UHGV virus genome: UHGV-0217885
Length of the DNA stretch: 14,221 nt
DNA from: a virus
Direction: 5' to 3' (one strand)
Position 1 is the first letter of the stretch. The number at the start of each line of letters is the position of its first letter. Below the pieces are notes generated by a model. That model was not told the origin of the DNA. It saw only the letters and a list, made by a program, of their open reading frames with translations, and searched no databases. Below, piece after piece: positions 1 to 5,004 of this stretch. A program made the position numbers and the translations under genes.

Positions 1-123
1 AATACAATCTCCGTTGACCGAAGGAGATCAGTGAAGGTAATTTAAAAACGGTTCTGTGAAAGTGACACGAACCGATCTCCATCGATGTTACTCACCGATC
101 TCCTTCACGGTAATACGCAGTCG

Positions 124-154
124 TTATCAAACACCTGTTAAACCACATTAGAAT
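124..154 (+). promoter_or_regulatory. Weak candidate sigma70-type promoter upstream of the small ORF
   Basis: TTATCA at 124..129 and TAGAAT at 149..154, but the spacer is about 19 bp, which is longer than optimal. Position is appropriate for the ORF at 181..282. Judged by eye only. Confidence 0.2.
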
Positions 155-180
155 GCACAAATAAAAGGATCTATATCAAT

Positions 181-282
181 ATGTTATCTCTCGTTTATGA
201 AAATCGGTGGACGACGATTTTTCTGCTGATTTTTGCCAGCATGTGCCTCAATAGTGTTATTGGCGCATTACACGCCCAGTAA
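181..282 (+). CDS. Small hydrophobic protein, 33 aa (MLSLVYENRWTTIFLLIFASMCLNSVIGALHAQ), predicted single transmembrane helix
   Basis: ATG at 181 and TAA at 280..282. AAGGA at 165..169 lies about 11 nt upstream of the ATG. An intrinsic terminator follows about 20 nt downstream. Too short to appear in the supplied ORF track; translated manually. Confidence 0.3.
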   Translation: MLSLVYENRWTTIFLLIFASMCLNSVIGALHAQ

Positions 283-301
283 TCGCGACAAAACCAGCCC
301 C

Positions 302-329
302 AAACCGGCACCGTGAATGCCGGTTTTTT
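302..329 (+). terminator. Rho-independent terminator (GC-rich hairpin followed by a T-run)
   Basis: Left arm AAACCGGCA (302..310), loop CCGTGAA (311..317), right arm TGCCGGTTT (318..326), T-run 324..329. Confidence 0.55.
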
Positions 330-488
330 ATGCCATTTTTCCGCGATTTCCCCGTTTTTAGCCGTGCATGCAACAGGTGCATGCTTTTGCATTCGCAGGG
401 GTTGCCCGTTCTGACCGTGCGCCGCCAGAGCTGGCGCGGATCCCGAGTGTTCATGCAACTGCATTAAAACCGCCCCGTAAAGCGGGCA

Positions 489-507
489 GGCGTGGCGGGG
501 AAAGCAT
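489..507. other. cos: cos site (cosN-like 19-nt cohesive-end sequence) of a P2/186-family phage
   Basis: GGCGTGGCGGGGAAAGCAT at 489..507 matches the P2 cohesive end GGCGAGGCGGGGAAAGCAC, as I recall it, at 17 of 19 positions, and the following TGCGCGC is also shared. Orientation relative to the minus-strand portal gene matches the P2 left end. Confidence 0.7.
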
Positions 508-523
508 TGCGCGCAGCACACAC

Positions 524-553
524 TTGCAATTTGATATTTTTGGTGTAAAAAAT
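524..553 (+). promoter_or_regulatory. Weak candidate promoter for the cargo operon
   Basis: TTGCAA at 524..529 followed about 16 to 18 bp later by an A/T-rich -10-like stretch (TAAAAA/AAAAAT, 546..553). Poor match to consensus; position only. Confidence 0.2.
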
Positions 554-615
554 CGGTGTCAATGAGTAGAAGATGAAAAATAATAACCAAAGGTTACTAA
601 ATCAAGGATGTGCCG

Positions 616-1434
616 ATGAAAGTTAGCTATGACGTTGTCATCAAAAGTGGTGATCAAGAAGTTGATATGGAGTATGGCCTTGATACCCTCTCTGGAACGG
701 CTGAGGTGACATGCATACTAGCAGAGGCAATACTCAGAAAAAAAATTATTAAGCGCCGCACTCATGTTAACCCTGCGCGAGCGGTTCTCAAACAAAGCTT
801 TAAAAGTTCTTATGGTCAAAACTTCGACTTGATTGTTAATGAGCCGGAATTAGCTGCCGAATTAAAAAAAATGACCCGTTCTGTGTTCTCGGAAGTCATG
901 GGGTATTTTATTTCTGAATCTCTATATCTGGAAACTAAGGAGCTATCTCCAAAAGCTGCAGGAATTATTGAGGAGCTTGAGGAAATTGAAGATGAACTTA
1001 TTGATCGTATCAGACAACCTTTGGTAAGGATGCATAGGATAAATCTTCAAAAAAACTTTGATGTTGAACTTAACTATAAAAAACCTGCTGGAAAACAAAG
1101 AATAGCAAAGTTAGACACAATGACTGCTACAAACTTGACACAATCAAAAATAAAGCCCGGTCAAGTTAATATTAACGCAGTTATTACTCGATTTAATGCG
1201 AGAACTGGAAATGGTAGGTTAGTTATCGAAGGTGAAGATGATACAGTAGCCTTTGGTTTTTACATGCCTTTAAAGGCTATACCCGCCGCTCAAAAAAGAT
1301 TGGTCTCATTAAATTTACACAATAATAATGGCAGGCAAGATAACTACACATATCTAAAACTTACTGTTAGCAAAGTTGTAGTAAAAAGTGGTGATGTGGT
1401 GAAATATCTAATCCGTATGGTTGAAACTGTATGA
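616..1434 (+). CDS. Hypothetical cargo protein, 272 aa, no transmembrane segment, family not recognised; candidate sensor or partner of the downstream membrane protein
   Basis: ORF-track entry 610..1434 begins at a GTG. The ATG at 616 is preferred because AAGGA at 604..608 sits 7 nt upstream. AT-rich, unlike the phage structural genes. Stop overlaps the next start (ATGA at 1431..1434). Confidence 0.8.
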   Translation: MKVSYDVVIKSGDQEVDMEYGLDTLSGTAEVTCILAEAILRKKIIKRRTHVNPARAVLKQSFKSSYGQNFDLIVNEPELAAELKKMTRSVFSEVMGYFISESLYLETKELSPKAAGIIEELEEIEDELIDRIRQPLVRMHRINLQKNFDVELNYKKPAGKQRIAKLDTMTATNLTQSKIKPGQVNINAVITRFNARTGNGRLVIEGEDDTVAFGFYMPLKAIPAAQKRLVSLNLHNNNGRQDNYTYLKLTVSKVVVKSGDVVKYLIRMVETV

Positions 1435-2156
1435 GAAAGGTGTTGCTGTCTTCGGCTGGCGTGATTGTAGCTGTGTGCGCCTTGTATTACTTCAACTTCG
1501 GAGTAAACGGACATTTATCCAGCAAGACTGATGTTTGGGCGCAGTTTGGTGATTATTTGGGTGGTGTCGTCAACCCTATACTTTCATTTATTACAATTTA
1601 CCTCCTTATAAATTCAATAAAACTTCAAAGGGAGGCTAATTCCAGCCTGATCGATGAAGTAAAAAGGCAAGAATCTTTAGAAGAGTATAAAAAATTTGAA
1701 GTGAGATTTTTCCATTTGGTTGAATGTCAGGATTCTAACTTTGAAAGGTTTTGTGTTCAAGTTGGTGATATTGATGGACAAACTGACGGGGTGGTCGAAG
1801 AATTTACAAGTGGTGCAGCCGTAACTTATCTTGAAGATAATATTGTAATTTTAGTTAAAGCCAAGGTAAAAAAAGAGGTAATAACAAAGTGGTTAAGTGA
1901 AGTGGATGCTAATGATTGCATTTTTTCAGTGGTGCGTCGCTTTTATTTGATTGTGAAGTTGATAGATAATTGCGGGGTTGAACGGGAAGATTATTATGAA
2001 ACATTAGTTAACTTAACTGACATAAAAATAATATCTTTAGTTGCAATGGCTTGTACATACTACGAGTGGGATATCGTAAAGTATATCCATGACAGTAAAA
2101 TACTTGAACGAGATGGAGTTAAAGAGTTTGTTTCGCAAATATCCACTCACGATTGA
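1431..2156 (+). CDS. Hypothetical membrane protein, 241 aa, two N-terminal transmembrane helices plus a soluble C-terminal domain of about 175 aa; candidate effector
   Basis: Hydrophobic segments VLLSSAGVIVAVCALYYFNF and LGGVVNPILSFITIYLLINSI near the N-terminus. AT-rich. Start overlaps the upstream stop, implying translational coupling. Converges on the portal gene. Confidence 0.8.
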   Translation: MRKVLLSSAGVIVAVCALYYFNFGVNGHLSSKTDVWAQFGDYLGGVVNPILSFITIYLLINSIKLQREANSSLIDEVKRQESLEEYKKFEVRFFHLVECQDSNFERFCVQVGDIDGQTDGVVEEFTSGAAVTYLEDNIVILVKAKVKKEVITKWLSEVDANDCIFSVVRRFYLIVKLIDNCGVEREDYYETLVNLTDIKIISLVAMACTYYEWDIVKYIHDSKILERDGVKEFVSQISTHD

Positions 2157-2186: not shown

Positions 2187-3233
2187 TTATTCCGGATTAT
2201 CGAGGGTGTACTCTTTGAACCTGATGACCTCCATGCCGAGCCAGTCGTTTACCTCCCTGAACCTGTCCTGTAGCGGCGACAGCTCATTGCGCACAAATAC
2301 CTTTGCCACCTTCTCAACGTCACCGAGTGAACCGATATTCTCGGGCTTGCCGCCCATGAGCTGGAACGGTACGCGGTGCGCGTCCATCAGGTCGGCGGCG
2401 CTGGCTTTCTTAATGTTGAAAAAGTCATCCTTTGTGGCGACCTCGCTCAGTGGCACGATTTTGATGCCGTCCGGTTTTCCGCCGGGGGCGTAGAAAAACA
2501 GGTTCTTAAAGTTGCCGAGTCCCTTCGAGTTACGCATCGCCTCGCGCAGCGATTCGACGTCGGTCGCACTTTGCGCCGGGTCAGTCACATACATGATGTA
2601 GCCTGCGTGCGCGCCGTTCTGATAATACTTGCGGCGGAACAGCGTCGCGGATTCATTCAGCCAAGCGGAATTAAGCGCGCTGAGATATTCCGGCAGACCG
2701 TAAATCTCCTGATTAATGTCGGGCTCCAGCAGGTGAAACACGGTATCAGGCGCGAACTCGTGCGGCTGGGTGAAGTTTTCCACAAACCAGAAAATCGAAT
2801 CGTCGACTCCGCGTCGGGTGTATTTGGCTGGCGAGGCCAGCAGTTTGATTAACTGGCCGGTGACGCTGTGGCGCTGCTCAAGAAAGGCGTTACCGAACAC
2901 CAGATAATCGAGCGCAAAGCGGCTGAAATCCTGACGGGATAACAACGGGTGCGGAATGTAGGTGCTCGCGAGCACGTTACGCTTAACATAAATTGGCGAG
3001 CTGTGATGCACGGCAGAGCGCAGGCTCTTTGCCAGCCCTGAGAAGCTGACCGGCGGCTCGTACCATTTGCCGTTACTGATGCATTCGACGTAATCCAGAA
3101 TGTCGCGCTTATCGAGTACCGGCACCGGCTCGCCGAAGGTGAACGCTGTCGTTTTTGGCGGTGCGCTGGCGGTCAGTTGTTGTGGTTTGCTGGCCTTTTG
3201 TGCGTTGGCTTTACGGGATTTTTGTTTACCCAT
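2187..3233 (-). CDS. Q: Portal protein (P2 gpQ family), 348 aa
   Basis: Length and sequence resemble P2 gpQ (about 344 aa) as recalled. Lies immediately downstream of P on the minus strand, as in P2. Confidence 0.93.
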   Translation of the reverse strand: MGKQKSRKANAQKASKPQQLTASAPPKTTAFTFGEPVPVLDKRDILDYVECISNGKWYEPPVSFSGLAKSLRSAVHHSSPIYVKRNVLASTYIPHPLLSRQDFSRFALDYLVFGNAFLEQRHSVTGQLIKLLASPAKYTRRGVDDSIFWFVENFTQPHEFAPDTVFHLLEPDINQEIYGLPEYLSALNSAWLNESATLFRRKYYQNGAHAGYIMYVTDPAQSATDVESLREAMRNSKGLGNFKNLFFYAPGGKPDGIKIVPLSEVATKDDFFNIKKASAADLMDAHRVPFQLMGGKPENIGSLGDVEKVAKVFVRNELSPLQDRFREVNDWLGMEVIRFKEYTLDNPE

Positions 3234-3234
3234 T

Positions 3235-5004
3235 TTAGTTGAACTCCAGAATAGATTTAGGCTGCATGCCGCTACCGGCAGAAAGCGGTTCGTTTAACAG
3301 GGCGTGCATGGTCGCCCATGCGATATCGGCGTGGCTGGCTTCCTCGGTGCGGCTGGCCTCATAGGTGGCGCTGCGCCCGCTGCTAGTCATGGTTTTGCGG
3401 ATGGACATAAACGACTGCGTGACGTCGGTTGCTCCGGCGTCGTACTCCAGACAGCCACGGCGAATGGTGTCTTTCGCCTTGAGTACCATTGCGGTTTTCA
3501 TTTCAGGTGTGTAACGGATGCCGCGTGCCGCCGGGTAAAATGAGCGCACCAGCTGGAACACGCCGAGACCGAGGCCGGTTGCGTCAATGCCGATGTATTC
3601 AACGTTGTATTTCTCGGTCAGCTTGCGGATGCCCTCTGCCTGTGCTGCAAAATCCATGCCCTTCCACTGGTGGCGCTCCAGCATGCGGAACTTGCCACCA
3701 GAGACCACCGGCGGCGCGAGCACGACGCACCCGGCACTGTCGCCGGTGTGTGACGGGTCGTAGCCAATCCAGACAGGACGAGAGCCGAACGGATGGTCGG
3801 CGAACGGGGCAAAGTCCTCCCATTCCTCCATCACATCGACCATGCAGCGCTGCAGCTCCTCGAACGGGAATACCGACGCTTTATCGTCGACAAACTCGCA
3901 CATAAACAGGTTCTTAAAGTCCTCATCACTGTTTTCGCGTTTGAGCTGGTCGAGGTCGAACAGGGTGCAGCCACCCGCAAGGGCGTCCTCAATGGTGACA
4001 ATCTGCCGCCACTGGCCATCGTCGCAGAGCTGGCCACCGGCGAGCGCGCTGTGACTGATGTCGATTTCGATGCGGTCGGCAATCCGGCTGCGCCCCTTGT
4101 TGAACAGCTCGCCAGACCAGAAGGGGTAAGCGCCGTGCGCCAGCGTGGAAGGTGTCGAAAAATAGGTCGAGCGCAGGTGCTTTTGCGAGGCCATGCCCGA
4201 GGCGACTTTGCGCAGTTTCTGAAAATTCGGGATCCAGAATATTTCATCGACATACAGATCGCCGTTATGGCTCTGCGCGGTGTTGGAATTGGTACCGAGA
4301 AAAATCAGTTTTGCGCCGTTGTTACCGATGACAATCGGGTCGCCAGTCAGGTCAACGTCGACCAGTCGCGCAAACTGGATGATGTATTCGCGGAACACGT
4401 AAGCCTGCGTTTTACTGGCTGATAAAAATATCTGGTTATGGCCGGTTTTGAGTGCGCGCAGCAGTGCCTCGCGGGAGAAATAGAATGTCGCGCCAATCTG
4501 GCGGGATTTGAGAATGTCACGAATACGGTGCTCCAGTCCTGCGCGGTACCACTGCAACTGGTACTCGAAAGACTGGTCGAAAAATAATTCCTCTAGTTTA
4601 TCGATAGACTCGTCGCTGAAAAAATTCTTTTTCGGCTTTTTGCGCTCCCCTTTGTTGCGGTTGGCGACGTTGGGGTTAAGGTCGGCTTCGTTGCCGGTCT
4701 GGCTGTAGCGGTTGACTCGCGCCAACCGTTCAATCTGCCGTCCGAGCAGGTCAATCTCTTTGAAATCACCCCCTGTCTTTTGCGGCTTGGCGATGAGCTG
4801 AATCAGCCTAGCCTCAAGGCTGCTTTCAACGCGGGAAATCGGCGCGATGCCGTCCCAGCCGTCGCGCTGCTTCCAGCTCTGCACGGTCGGGCGCTTGACC
4901 TGCAGCATTTCGGCAATCTGTGGCACGGAAAAACCCTGCCAGTAAAGCAGCGATGCCTGCCGTCGCGGGTCATGCAACAAGGTTGTATCTGTGGAAATGG
5001 TCAT
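3235..5004 (-). CDS. P: Terminase large (ATPase) subunit (P2 gpP family), 589 aa
   Basis: N-terminus MTISTDTTLLHDPRRQASLLYWQGFSVPQIAEMLQ closely matches recalled P2 gpP (about 590 aa). Divergent from O across a 165-bp intergenic region. Confidence 0.95.
   Translation of the reverse strand: MTISTDTTLLHDPRRQASLLYWQGFSVPQIAEMLQVKRPTVQSWKQRDGWDGIAPISRVESSLEARLIQLIAKPQKTGGDFKEIDLLGRQIERLARVNRYSQTGNEADLNPNVANRNKGERKKPKKNFFSDESIDKLEELFFDQSFEYQLQWYRAGLEHRIRDILKSRQIGATFYFSREALLRALKTGHNQIFLSASKTQAYVFREYIIQFARLVDVDLTGDPIVIGNNGAKLIFLGTNSNTAQSHNGDLYVDEIFWIPNFQKLRKVASGMASQKHLRSTYFSTPSTLAHGAYPFWSGELFNKGRSRIADRIEIDISHSALAGGQLCDDGQWRQIVTIEDALAGGCTLFDLDQLKRENSDEDFKNLFMCEFVDDKASVFPFEELQRCMVDVMEEWEDFAPFADHPFGSRPVWIGYDPSHTGDSAGCVVLAPPVVSGGKFRMLERHQWKGMDFAAQAEGIRKLTEKYNVEYIGIDATGLGLGVFQLVRSFYPAARGIRYTPEMKTAMVLKAKDTIRRGCLEYDAGATDVTQSFMSIRKTMTSSGRSATYEASRTEEASHADIAWATMHALLNEPLSAGSGMQPKSILEFN

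What the first reader, a model, noticed from the sequence alone, without database searches (positions are those of the whole stretch)
124..329. Compact small-protein gene with its own SD and terminator, resembling a type I toxin or small membrane protein
A 33-codon ORF at 181..282 encodes a strongly hydrophobic peptide with one predicted transmembrane helix. It is preceded by AAGGA (165..169) and a weak promoter-like pair, and followed by a clean intrinsic terminator (302..329). Size and hydrophobicity recall Hok, Ldr, Ibs or TisB-type toxins or small membrane regulators, though it could be a chance ORF in AT-rich DNA. No antisense RNA could be identified by eye.
Basis: seen in the sequence. 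Interest (0 to 1): 0.45.

Follow-up and report, generated by a model that had tools for sequence, protein, structure and literature searches.

The report
Conserved 33-residue prophage membrane peptide gene
The 33-codon reading frame is very probably a real but uncharacterised gene for a tiny membrane-spanning peptide, carried as the last gene before the packaging site in phage-186-like prophages of enteric bacteria; nothing supports it being a toxin with an antisense-RNA antidote.

Summary
The pair scores no better than shuffled sequence.

The window is a phage-186-like prophage. Bases 1-119 are the end of an ISEc12 insertion sequence. It has cut a 63-codon upstream gene and separated the small ORF from its native upstream DNA. 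The terminator is the counterpart of phage 186 t95b, which ends the LexA-controlled SOS operon. The packaging site cos follows about 200 nt later.

I collected about 45 distinct related DNA stretches from E. coli, Salmonella, Klebsiella and Citrobacter prophages.
- Nearly all keep the same ATG and a 33-codon frame without indels.
- Most keep the Shine-Dalgarno sequence.
- Synonymous changes are in excess (omega about 0.38, P = 2e-4).
- The spacer after the stop codon is variable and carries indels.
- A few lineages show decay or deletion, as expected for an accessory gene.
- Annotated antisense ORFs use different frames in different phages and are artefacts.

No known protein or RNA family matches. 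No antisense promoter, antitoxin RNA or complementary partner was found.

Best reading: this is a new small single-pass membrane protein, the distal cistron of the prophage SOS operon. Its function is unknown. Interest is moderate.

The parts
1..119 (+). Right end of an ISEc12 (IS21-family) insertion sequence, ending in ...CGCA at 119. It holds the istB stop and the terminal repeats. It is not part of the gene, but it cuts the gene off from its native upstream DNA.
   Evidence: 100% identity to IS copies in phage PhiR12_1 and in 1,782 E. coli genomes. The matching sequence is annotated as the IS21-like ISEc12 helper ATPase IstB. Prophage homology starts exactly at base 120.
120..164 (+). The last 14 codons plus the TAA stop of a disrupted 63-codon gene (h63, phrog_2454, function unknown). 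In intact relatives this gene immediately precedes the small ORF.
   Evidence: The intact gene is WP_001407038 in E. coli S3 at L005 3354..3545. It matches phrog_2454 at E = 1e-39. See also the alignment.
149..154 (+). TAGAAT, a -10-like hexamer inside the h63 tail. It is a possible weak internal promoter in this lineage. There is no good -35.
   Evidence: PWM score 7.6 against a shuffle best of 9.0 +/- 1.7. Across 25 distinct upstream sequences the hexamer is CAGAAT in 16 (two of them displaced one base by a 1-nt deletion), TAGAAT in 5 and AAGAAT in 1. It is absent from the SEN1-type upstream sequence. It is TATAAT in the 2 loci where h63 is destroyed and an opposite-strand gene lies upstream.
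165..169 (+). Shine-Dalgarno sequence AAGGA, with 11 nt between it and the ATG.
   Evidence: A GGA core is kept in 23 of 25 distinct upstream sequences. In phage SEN1, homology to the other phages begins exactly at ATAAAAGGA.
181..282 (+). p33: a 33-codon gene for a single-helix hydrophobic peptide. The window allele is MLSLVYENRWTTIFLLIFASMCLNSVIGALHAQ. The family consensus is MLSLVYENPWTTVFLLIVASMCLNSVIGALRGQ.
   Evidence: The frame, the ATG and a 33-codon length are kept in almost all full-length relatives. Omega is about 0.36-0.38 and synonymous excess gives P = 2e-4. Thr12 uses all four ACN codons. AF2 predicts a helix. The peptide is annotated as a 33-aa hypothetical protein in Klebsiella phage ST147-VIM1phi7.1. 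It is present as 33-aa clusters seen on hundreds to over 1,000 contigs.
283..301 (+). Variable spacer between the stop codon and the terminator.
   Evidence: Column entropy is 0.81 here, against 0.26 in the ORF and 0.20 in the terminator. The spacer contains indels.
302..329 (+). Intrinsic terminator, the homologue of phage 186 t95b, which ends the p95 SOS-operon transcript.
   Evidence: 186 annotation. Coordinate mapping. Hairpin of -12.8 kcal/mol followed by U6. Conserved in all relatives.
330..488 (.). Right-end region next to cos. Homology to the right end of the linear 186 genome stops at about 488. Shown for context only.
   Evidence: Window 292-488 aligns to 186 30426-30624, which is the end of that record. 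The right ends of Midge, SEN1 and EtG align in the same way.

Best explanation
The ORF at 181..282 is a real protein-coding gene, which I call p33. It encodes a 33-residue peptide that forms one transmembrane helix in the inner membrane. It belongs to a narrow, so far unnamed family found only in 186-like (Peduoviridae) prophages of Enterobacteriaceae.

In intact relatives it is the last cistron of the rightward operon that starts at a LexA-boxed promoter after the replication gene A. The order there is a 60-aa ORF with a DinI-like gene (or tum, sometimes with orf97), then variable genes, then the 63-aa ORF, then p33. The operon ends at the t95b terminator just before cos.

Inferred mechanism: DNA damage removes LexA and the operon is transcribed. 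p33 is translated from its own SD and inserts into the membrane while the prophage is switching to lytic growth. There it acts either on the membrane or on a membrane protein. Conserved small and polar residues (S20, C22, N24, S25, G28) lie within the helix, so helix-helix association is plausible. It would be kept silent by LexA repression, not by an antisense RNA.

In this window an ISEc12 insertion at 119/120 has severed p33 from that promoter. Expression here could come only from read-through out of the IS or from the weak TAGAAT element.

Shown: the gene structure, the conservation pattern, the synteny, the LexA box, the terminator identity and the IS disruption. Inferred: translation, membrane insertion, SOS control and any cellular effect.
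For: Coding status:
- The same ATG and an indel-free 33-codon frame are kept in 36 of 39 full-length distinct sequences at 82-100% nucleotide identity. The stop is at the same codon in 34; in L064 it falls one codon early and in L047 it is lost.
- The frame is also kept in more distant E. coli O157:H7 and 81%-identity variants found by DNA similarity alone.
- NG86 dN/dS is 0.36, the lowest of the six frames.
- A per-codon minimum-spanning count gives 27 synonymous against 35 non-synonymous changes on 21.6 and 74.4 sites (omega 0.38, P = 2e-4).
- Non-synonymous changes are mostly conservative: I/V, L/M, A/T.
- The ORF and the terminator are conserved (entropy 0.26 and 0.20), while the 22-nt spacer between them is not (0.81, with indels).
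- The SD is conserved, and SEN1 homology begins at the SD.
- Where selection has evidently lapsed (L070 type), the start codon is lost, a stop appears and the frame shifts, yet the terminator stays intact.
- Antisense ORFs use different frames in different phages.

Membrane helix.

Operon context:
- The 186 annotation shows p95, a LexA site, tum, orf97, t95a and t95b.
- A perfect LexA box, CTGTATAAACATACAG, lies upstream of the 60-aa ORF in E. coli S3.
- The gene order is consistent in about 45 loci, and p33 always lies 0.5-2.7 kb from the portal gene.
- No plus-strand terminator lies between the LexA box and p33 in TW10598 or SW9, apart from a weak hairpin inside p33 itself.
- In the 186-like Salmonella prophage BTP5, tum was the most highly expressed prophage transcript under stress (PMC7067206).
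Against: - There is no direct evidence of transcription or translation.
- NCBI's PGAP pipeline does not call the ORF.
- With 33 codons and related sequences, the selection statistics are modest.
- The family has no distant homologues: phmmer against 1.84 billion representatives returned only its own cluster. Conservation therefore rests on a shallow tree.
- Several lineages have lost or broken the ORF (L070 type, L072, L028, L063, P0039).
- In the S3/Midge-type arrangement from which this window derives, a 143-codon gene on the opposite strand lies between DinI and h63. Read-through from the LexA promoter is therefore less certain there.
- In L043 and L055 an opposite-strand gene lies upstream and the -10-like hexamer is TATAAT, which hints at an own promoter.
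- The window allele carries four unusual changes (P9R, V18F, R31H, G32A). Close relatives L046 and L042 add A19D and a weakened SD, which could mean relaxed constraint in this sub-lineage.
Confidence: 0.6

Rival explanations
1. p33 is an autonomous moron: a promoter-gene-terminator cassette expressed on its own, possibly in the lysogen, rather than as the distal cistron of the SOS operon.
For: - The layout is compact: SD, ORF and terminator.
- A -10-like TAGAAT lies at 149-154 in the window lineage.
- The same hexamer is a perfect TATAAT in L043 and L055, where h63 is reduced to a remnant and the nearest upstream gene is on the other strand.
- In SEN1-type phages, homology starts at the SD.
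- In the S3/Midge type, an opposite-strand gene interrupts the operon.
Against: - No candidate promoter exceeds shuffled sequence.
- Most relatives have CAGAAT, which lacks the -12 T.
- There is no acceptable -35 at 16-18 nt.
- The ORF starts 16 nt after an upstream same-strand stop codon, which is typical of an operon.
Confidence: 0.2
2. The conserved sequence is a non-coding element and the open frame is incidental. It could be the 3' untranslated part of the SOS-operon transcript, a 3'-derived small RNA, or a DNA site used near cos.
For: - PGAP does not annotate it and there is no known protein family.
- Nucleotide conservation is very high from the SD through codon 10, with almost no synonymous change there.
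- The ORF sits against a terminator and close to cos.
- Some lineages lack an intact ORF.
Against: - Synonymous excess in codons 11-33 (omega 0.36, P = 2e-4).
- Thr12 uses all four codons.
- There are no indels in 99 nt, while the adjacent spacer has several.
- The start, the SD and the 33-codon length are maintained.
- There is no Rfam match.
- The whole-region fold is not unusual (z = -1.36).
- The hairpin inside the ORF shows uncompensated changes.
- 186 itself has no p33 sequence, and P2 did not appear in either phage search, so p33 is not needed for packaging.
- The contrast between codons 2-10 and 11-33 is not significant (Fisher P = 0.13-0.22).
Confidence: 0.15
3. p33 is the toxin of a type I toxin-antitoxin system of the Hok, Ldr, Ibs, TisB or DinQ kind, held in check by an antisense or trans-acting small RNA.
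For: - The size, hydrophobicity and single helix resemble those toxins.
- The probable LexA control parallels tisB and dinQ (established knowledge of those loci).
- The nucleotide sequence around the SD and start is highly conserved.
Against: - No toxin family matched at E <= 1.
- No antitoxin RNA family matched at E <= 10.
- No minus-strand promoter exceeds chance.
- Nothing in the 14-kb window is complementary to the region.
- There is no long structured 5' leader: the ORF follows another ORF by 16 nt.
- The helix is uncharged and weakly amphipathic (muH 0.68), unlike TisB, DinQ, ZorO and ShoB (0.9-1.6 with 2-3 charges).
- Broken copies persist without obvious loss of the neighbouring sequence.
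Confidence: 0.08
4. It is a chance open reading frame in AT-rich DNA.
For: Short ORFs are abundant here (24 of at least 20 aa in 1.5 kb). The ORF is unannotated in RefSeq.
Against: The frame, start, stop and SD are conserved across about 45 distinct sequences down to 81% identity, with synonymous excess. All other frames carry stops or are inconsistent between phages.
Confidence: 0.03

Closest known systems
Phage 186 SOS operon (p95 - tum - orf97 - t95a/t95b; Brumby et al. 1996, as annotated in U32222)
   Same: Same genome position: after gene A and before cos. The terminator is the same (t95b homologue at 302-329). A LexA box lies at the operon start in relatives. p33 coexists with tum and orf97 in some prophages (L049, L066).
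   Different: 186 itself has no p33. Its homology to the window begins only at about 292. Orf97 is a 243-aa protein unrelated in sequence. No p33 function is known.
TisB/IstR-1 and DinQ/AgrB, the LexA-controlled type I toxins of E. coli (from my own knowledge)
   Same: They are hydrophobic single-helix peptides of about 27-33 residues whose transcription is probably under LexA control.
   Different: There is no sequence similarity. No antisense or partner RNA was detected. p33 is the distal cistron of a polycistronic prophage operon rather than a monocistronic locus with a long leader. Its helix lacks the charged, amphipathic pattern.
Hok/Sok, Ldr/Rdl and Ibs/Sib type I systems
   Same: A small hydrophobic ORF followed by a terminator.
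   Different: There is no Pfam hit to Hok, Ldr or Ibs and no Sok, Rdl or Sib Rfam hit. There is no overlapping antisense promoter.
Small single-pass membrane regulators such as MgtS, AcrZ and MgrB, and the SOS-induced division inhibitor SidA of Caulobacter (from my own knowledge)
   Same: Similar length, an uncharged transmembrane helix and low amphipathicity. Polar and small residues within the helix could mediate binding to a partner membrane protein. SidA is also LexA-controlled.
   Different: There is no sequence relationship and no known partner. p33 is phage-borne and confined to 186-like prophages.
Phage morons (promoter-gene-terminator cassettes at module boundaries)
   Same: It is an accessory gene, dispensable in some lineages, that sits at a variable region next to cos and has its own terminator.
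   Different: No convincing own promoter in most lineages. The terminator is the operon's terminator, not one private to p33.

Membership tests
Protein-coding gene (generic comparative criteria) | The reading frame, start codon and stop position are maintained across diverged relatives, with no frame-breaking indels. | tested here: met
   36 of 39 full-length distinct sequences keep the same ATG and an indel-free frame; 34 of them keep the stop at the same codon, with L064 one codon short and L047 reading through. The intact O157:H7 and 81%-identity variants add to this. Indels occur in the flanking spacers but not in the ORF. Exceptions: L028, L063, the L070 type and L072.
Protein-coding gene (generic comparative criteria) | Excess of synonymous over non-synonymous change in the proposed frame. 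| tested here: met
   dN/dS is 0.36, the lowest of six frames. The minimum-spanning codon count gives omega 0.38, P = 2e-4. In the subset of nine sequences outside the IMG/VR loci, omega is 0.46 and P = 0.04; two of the nine (L018, L023) were themselves fetched with the pattern.
Protein-coding gene (generic comparative criteria) | Conserved ribosome-binding site at a suitable distance. | tested here: met
   A GGA core lies 10-11 nt upstream of the ATG in 23 of 25 distinct upstream sequences.
Protein-coding gene (generic comparative criteria) | Direct evidence of translation. | not testable with these tools
   No Ribo-seq or proteomic data were accessible. A full-text search for the peptide sequence found no paper.
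Type I toxin-antitoxin system (Hok, Ldr, Ibs, TisB, DinQ type) | A small hydrophobic, membrane-targeting peptide. | tested here: met
   33 aa, an uncharged 18-mer with KD 2.3, and one predicted helix.
Type I toxin-antitoxin system (Hok, Ldr, Ibs, TisB, DinQ type) | Sequence membership in a known toxin family. | tested here: not met
   No hits in Pfam, NCBIfam, PHROGs or PADLOC at E <= 1, apart from noise.
Type I toxin-antitoxin system (Hok, Ldr, Ibs, TisB, DinQ type) | An antitoxin RNA gene, either cis-antisense or nearby with complementarity, with its own promoter. | tested here: not met
   No Rfam family matched. The best minus-strand promoter candidates are at shuffle level. No inverted repeat in the window involves 120-340. 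Limitation: a weak or non-sigma-70 promoter, or a partner encoded outside the window, cannot be excluded.
Type I toxin-antitoxin system (Hok, Ldr, Ibs, TisB, DinQ type) | Toxicity on expression, neutralised by the RNA. | not testable with these tools
   This needs an experiment.
Phage 186-type SOS operon (p95 to t95b) | Ends at the t95b terminator immediately before cos. | tested here: met
   Window 302-329 aligns to 186 30436-30463, annotated as t95b.
Phage 186-type SOS operon (p95 to t95b) | A LexA-boxed promoter at the head of the same-strand gene string. | tested here: met
   A perfect CTGT-N8-ACAG box lies 22 nt upstream of the 60-aa ORF in E. coli S3, and one is also present in TW10598. 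It is not present in the window itself, because the IS cuts the locus at 119/120.
Phage 186-type SOS operon (p95 to t95b) | Uninterrupted co-transcription from the promoter to p33. | tested here: inconclusive
   No plus-strand terminator intervenes in TW10598 or SW9. The S3/Midge type, however, has a 143-codon gene on the opposite strand and a weak plus-strand hairpin in between. This needs RNA data.
Moron (autonomous promoter-gene-terminator cassette) | An own promoter directly upstream. | tested here: inconclusive
   TAGAAT in the window lineage scores at chance level. The hexamer is TATAAT in 2 lineages and CAGAAT in most.

The most novel reading that the evidence does not exclude
p33 is an SOS-triggered, phage-encoded membrane effector that needs no RNA antitoxin because LexA keeps it off. 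On prophage induction it depolarises or remodels the inner membrane, or binds a host membrane protein. The result would be to halt division, block superinfection or tune the timing of lysis. This would be a phage counterpart of TisB, DinQ or SidA, and a new small-protein family.
Probability: 0.2. Interest if true: 0.6.

Novelty: new member of a known kind. Interest (0 to 1): 0.35.

Why it matters
Small proteins are systematically missed by annotation. Here RefSeq calls non-conserved antisense ORFs instead of the conserved 33-codon frame.

If p33 is translated, it adds an uncharacterised membrane peptide to the best-studied SOS-inducible P2-family switch, the 186 tum operon. It is present in about 2% of complete E. 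coli genomes, including some O157:H7 strains, and in Salmonella and Klebsiella prophages.

It offers a simple, testable case of what a phage gains by co-expressing a tiny membrane peptide with its antirepressor.

It is not a new kind of system. Its distribution is narrow and it is dispensable in some lineages.

Tried and rejected
- The degenerate collection pattern had too few specified bases.
- The exact-core pattern scan of genome contigs gave 14 loci, of which only Citrobacter and Escherichia sp. were real.
- phmmer against 1.84 billion representatives found only the family itself, one frameshifted 58-aa variant and one spurious repeat protein.
- Pfam, NCBIfam, PHROGs and PADLOC gave no family. 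Rfam gave only noise at E > 1.
- The literature gave no paper holding the peptide sequence. Papers on the 186-like Salmonella prophage BTP5 describe tum and orf97 expression but no small ORF.
- A hairpin plus T-run inside the ORF (codons 5-12) was considered as an attenuator. I rejected it because V5I and Thr11 changes break pairs without compensation.
- The apparent lack of synonymous change in codons 1-10 was considered as a sign of an overlapping RNA element. It is not statistically significant and is partly imposed by my fetch pattern.
- The antisense 89-131-codon ORF, annotated by PGAP and in phage Midge, was considered as the real gene. I rejected it because different phages use different antisense frames across p33, joined by indels in the T-run and spacer.
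- p33 as a remnant of a larger gene was rejected because no longer homologue exists.
- p33 as a replacement for 186 orf97 was rejected because the two coexist in L049 and L066.

Full report
**What is in the sequence**

The window reads ATG at 181 through TAA at 280-282. It encodes MLSLVYENRWTTIFLLIFASMCLNSVIGALHAQ. AAGGA lies at 165-169.

A 9-bp G+C-rich hairpin followed by U6 lies at 302-329, with an energy of -12.8 kcal/mol and z = -2.35.

Residues 13-30 form an uncharged stretch with mean Kyte-Doolittle 2.3. AlphaFold2 on the single sequence gives one helix over residues 2-32 with pLDDT 92.

It exists but scores below the best hit of shuffled sequence: 7.4-7.6 against 9.0 +/- 1.7. The consensus scan found nothing there on either strand.

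The window is a 186-like, P2-family prophage.
- The portal gene (2187-3233) and the terminase gene (3235-5004) lie on the minus strand, followed by late genes.
- Window 292-488 aligns to the last 199 bases of the linear 186 genome. The hairpin at 302-329 is the counterpart of the annotated terminator t95b, which ends the LexA-controlled p95 SOS operon (tum, orf97).
- cos therefore lies near 488.

Bases 1-119 are not phage DNA.
- They are the right end of ISEc12, an IS21-family element. They are 100% identical to thousands of copies.
- In relatives without the IS, such as E. coli S3, which is 100% identical over 120-620, the insertion point falls inside a 63-codon gene (phrog_2454). Its last 14 codons and TAA remain at 120-164.
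- The ORF's isolated look is therefore partly an artefact of the insertion.

**Is the ORF more than chance?**

I collected homologous DNA from four sources:
- phage records (Midge, FSL SP-004, SW9, SI22, SEN1 and Klebsiella ST147-VIM1phi7.1);
- E. coli complete genomes;
- one Citrobacter and one Escherichia sp. genome;
- 43 IMG/VR loci.

Frame maintenance. Of 39 full-length distinct sequences, 36 keep the same ATG and an indel-free frame. The stop (TAA or TGA) falls at the same codon in 34; in L064 it falls one codon early and in L047 it is lost, extending the frame. More distant copies found by DNA similarity alone are also intact. These are the O157:H7 strains at 83.5% identity and a group at 81%.

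Pattern of variation along the region:

| Segment | Column entropy | Indels |
|---|---|---|
| ORF | 0.26 | only the two frameshifted copies (L028, L063) |
| Stop-to-terminator spacer | 0.81 | present |
| Terminator | 0.20 | T-run length varies |

Selection statistics:

| Test | Result |
|---|---|
| Pooled NG86 dN/dS | 0.36, lowest of six frames |
| Per-codon minimum-spanning count, all intact sequences | 27 synonymous / 35 non-synonymous on 21.6 / 74.4 sites; omega 0.38, P = 2e-4 |
| Same count, subset of nine sequences outside the IMG/VR loci (two of them, L018 and L023, also pattern-fetched) | omega 0.46, P = 0.04 |

Thr12 uses all four ACN codons. Most amino-acid changes are I/V, L/M or A/T.

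The SD core is kept in 23 of 25 distinct upstream sequences. In SEN1 the upstream gene is different, and homology starts exactly at ATAAAAGGA.

Antisense ORFs. RefSeq and the Midge record annotate antisense ORFs across this stretch. Different phages use different antisense frames over p33, joined by indels in the T-run and spacer. No conserved antisense protein exists.

Prevalence of the peptide. The 33-aa peptide is present in the big protein collection as several 33-aa clusters, seen on hundreds to more than 1,000 contigs from E. coli, Salmonella and Klebsiella. It is always labelled hypothetical.

**Counter-evidence**

Some lineages have lost the gene:
- The L070 type is 77.6% identical. 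The 60-80% identity band that contains it, together with partial matches such as L072, holds 24 of the 97 E. coli genomes with a match. In this type ATG has become CTG, there is an in-frame stop and there is a frameshift. The neighbouring 63-codon gene is also unannotated there, yet the terminator is intact.
- L072 lacks the 5' two-thirds of the ORF.
- L028 has a frameshift and has lost its stop.
- L063 has a 1-nt deletion in a T-run.
- P0039 is a frameshifted 58-aa variant.

This is what a dispensable accessory gene looks like. The decay also shows how fast the frame is lost when it is not maintained.

The family is shallow. phmmer against 1.84 billion representatives found nothing outside it, and tblastn found it in only 15 of 50,697 phage records.

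**How it is probably expressed**

In intact relatives the same-strand string runs in this order:
1. gene A;
2. a 60-aa ORF plus a DinI-like gene, or 186-type tum with or without orf97;
3. variable small genes;
4. the 63-codon ORF;
5. p33;
6. t95b;
7. cos.

A perfect LexA box, CTGTATAAACATACAG, overlaps the promoter region upstream of the 60-aa ORF. No plus-strand terminator intervenes in TW10598 or SW9. By synteny with 186, p33 is the distal cistron of the SOS operon. In the 186-like Salmonella prophage BTP5, tum is the most highly expressed prophage transcript under stress (PMC7067206).

Two caveats apply:
- The S3/Midge type, from which this window derives, has a 143-codon opposite-strand gene (phrog_2266) between DinI and the 63-codon ORF. 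Its start codon overlaps the start codon of the 63-codon ORF.
- In L043 and L055 the 63-codon ORF is a remnant, the upstream gene is on the other strand, and the -10-like hexamer is a perfect TATAAT.

An internal promoter is therefore possible in some lineages, including the window (TAGAAT). In this window the ISEc12 insertion leaves only that element, or read-through from istB.

**Type I toxin hypothesis**

The physical resemblance is real, but the defining features are not found:
- There is no toxin-family match.
- There is no antitoxin RNA family.
- No antisense promoter exceeds chance.
- There is no complementary partner in the window.
- There is no leader region.
- The helix is uncharged and weakly amphipathic, unlike TisB, DinQ, ZorO and ShoB.

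I rate this reading at about 0.08.

**Verdict**

p33 is a real, previously unnamed small membrane-protein gene of 186-like prophages. It is probably SOS-operon-borne. In this window it is cut off from that operon by an IS. Its function is unknown. The most likely action is at the inner membrane during prophage induction. It is a new member of a known kind, of moderate interest.

Noticed in passing
window 1-119: This is the right end of an ISEc12 (IS21-family) element, holding the istB stop and the terminal repeats ACCGATCTCC. It is inserted into the 63-codon phrog_2454 gene of the prophage. No complete E. coli genome in the collection carries this particular insertion: the best matches cover only 120-620.
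   Followed up: yes
L071 (E. coli CE0021a, NZ_CP119006.1) about 1620-1830: A second, independent ISEc12 insertion lies immediately after the p33 stop codon and replaces the terminator. That makes two ISEc12 insertions within about 170 bp of the same prophage region in different strains, which may indicate a target preference.
   Followed up: partly
window 610-2156: A two-gene cargo (274 aa, phrog_13337; 241 aa, phrog_8999, with an N-terminal hydrophobic segment) sits between cos and the portal gene. Relatives have nothing there (portal about 0.5 kb from p33) or different cargo (AAA ATPase and others). There is no PADLOC, Pfam or NCBIfam assignment, only faint DUF7946/DUF7947 and ZorB-like hits. 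This is a candidate unknown defence or accessory module in the P2-family hotspot.
   Followed up: partly
window 195-590 minus strand, 368-565 plus strand; L005 3576-3946: RefSeq and the Midge record annotate hypothetical proteins across the terminator and cos region, partly antisense to p33. Their frames are not conserved between phages, so they look like spurious calls.
   Followed up: yes
L005 2924-3545 (upstream of the window's IS junction in intact relatives): The 143-codon gene (phrog_2266, minus strand) and the 63-codon gene (phrog_2454, plus strand) are divergent, and their start codons overlap (GGACATGCAT). Each gene's SD and promoter must therefore lie inside the other's coding region. 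This pair plus p33 forms a module conserved next to cos, while the cargo upstream of it varies (reverse transcriptase, GNAT, DinI and others).
   Followed up: partly
L043 and L055 (IMG/VR), 27-32 nt upstream of the p33 ATG: Where the 63-codon gene is reduced to a remnant, the hexamer equivalent to window 149-154 is a perfect TATAAT. It is CAGAAT in most phages and TAGAAT in the window.
   Followed up: partly
window 181-210 (codons 1-10 of p33): Almost all variation in the first ten codons is non-synonymous, while codons 11-33 carry many synonymous variants. The contrast is not significant (Fisher P = 0.13-0.22) and is partly imposed by the fetch pattern.
   Followed up: yes
window allele of p33 (codons 9, 18, 31, 32): The window/S3 allele differs from the family consensus by P9R, V18F, R31H and G32A. 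This moves the only basic residue from the C-terminal to the N-terminal side of the helix. Close relatives L046 and L042 additionally have A19D and a weakened SD (AATGA).
   Followed up: no
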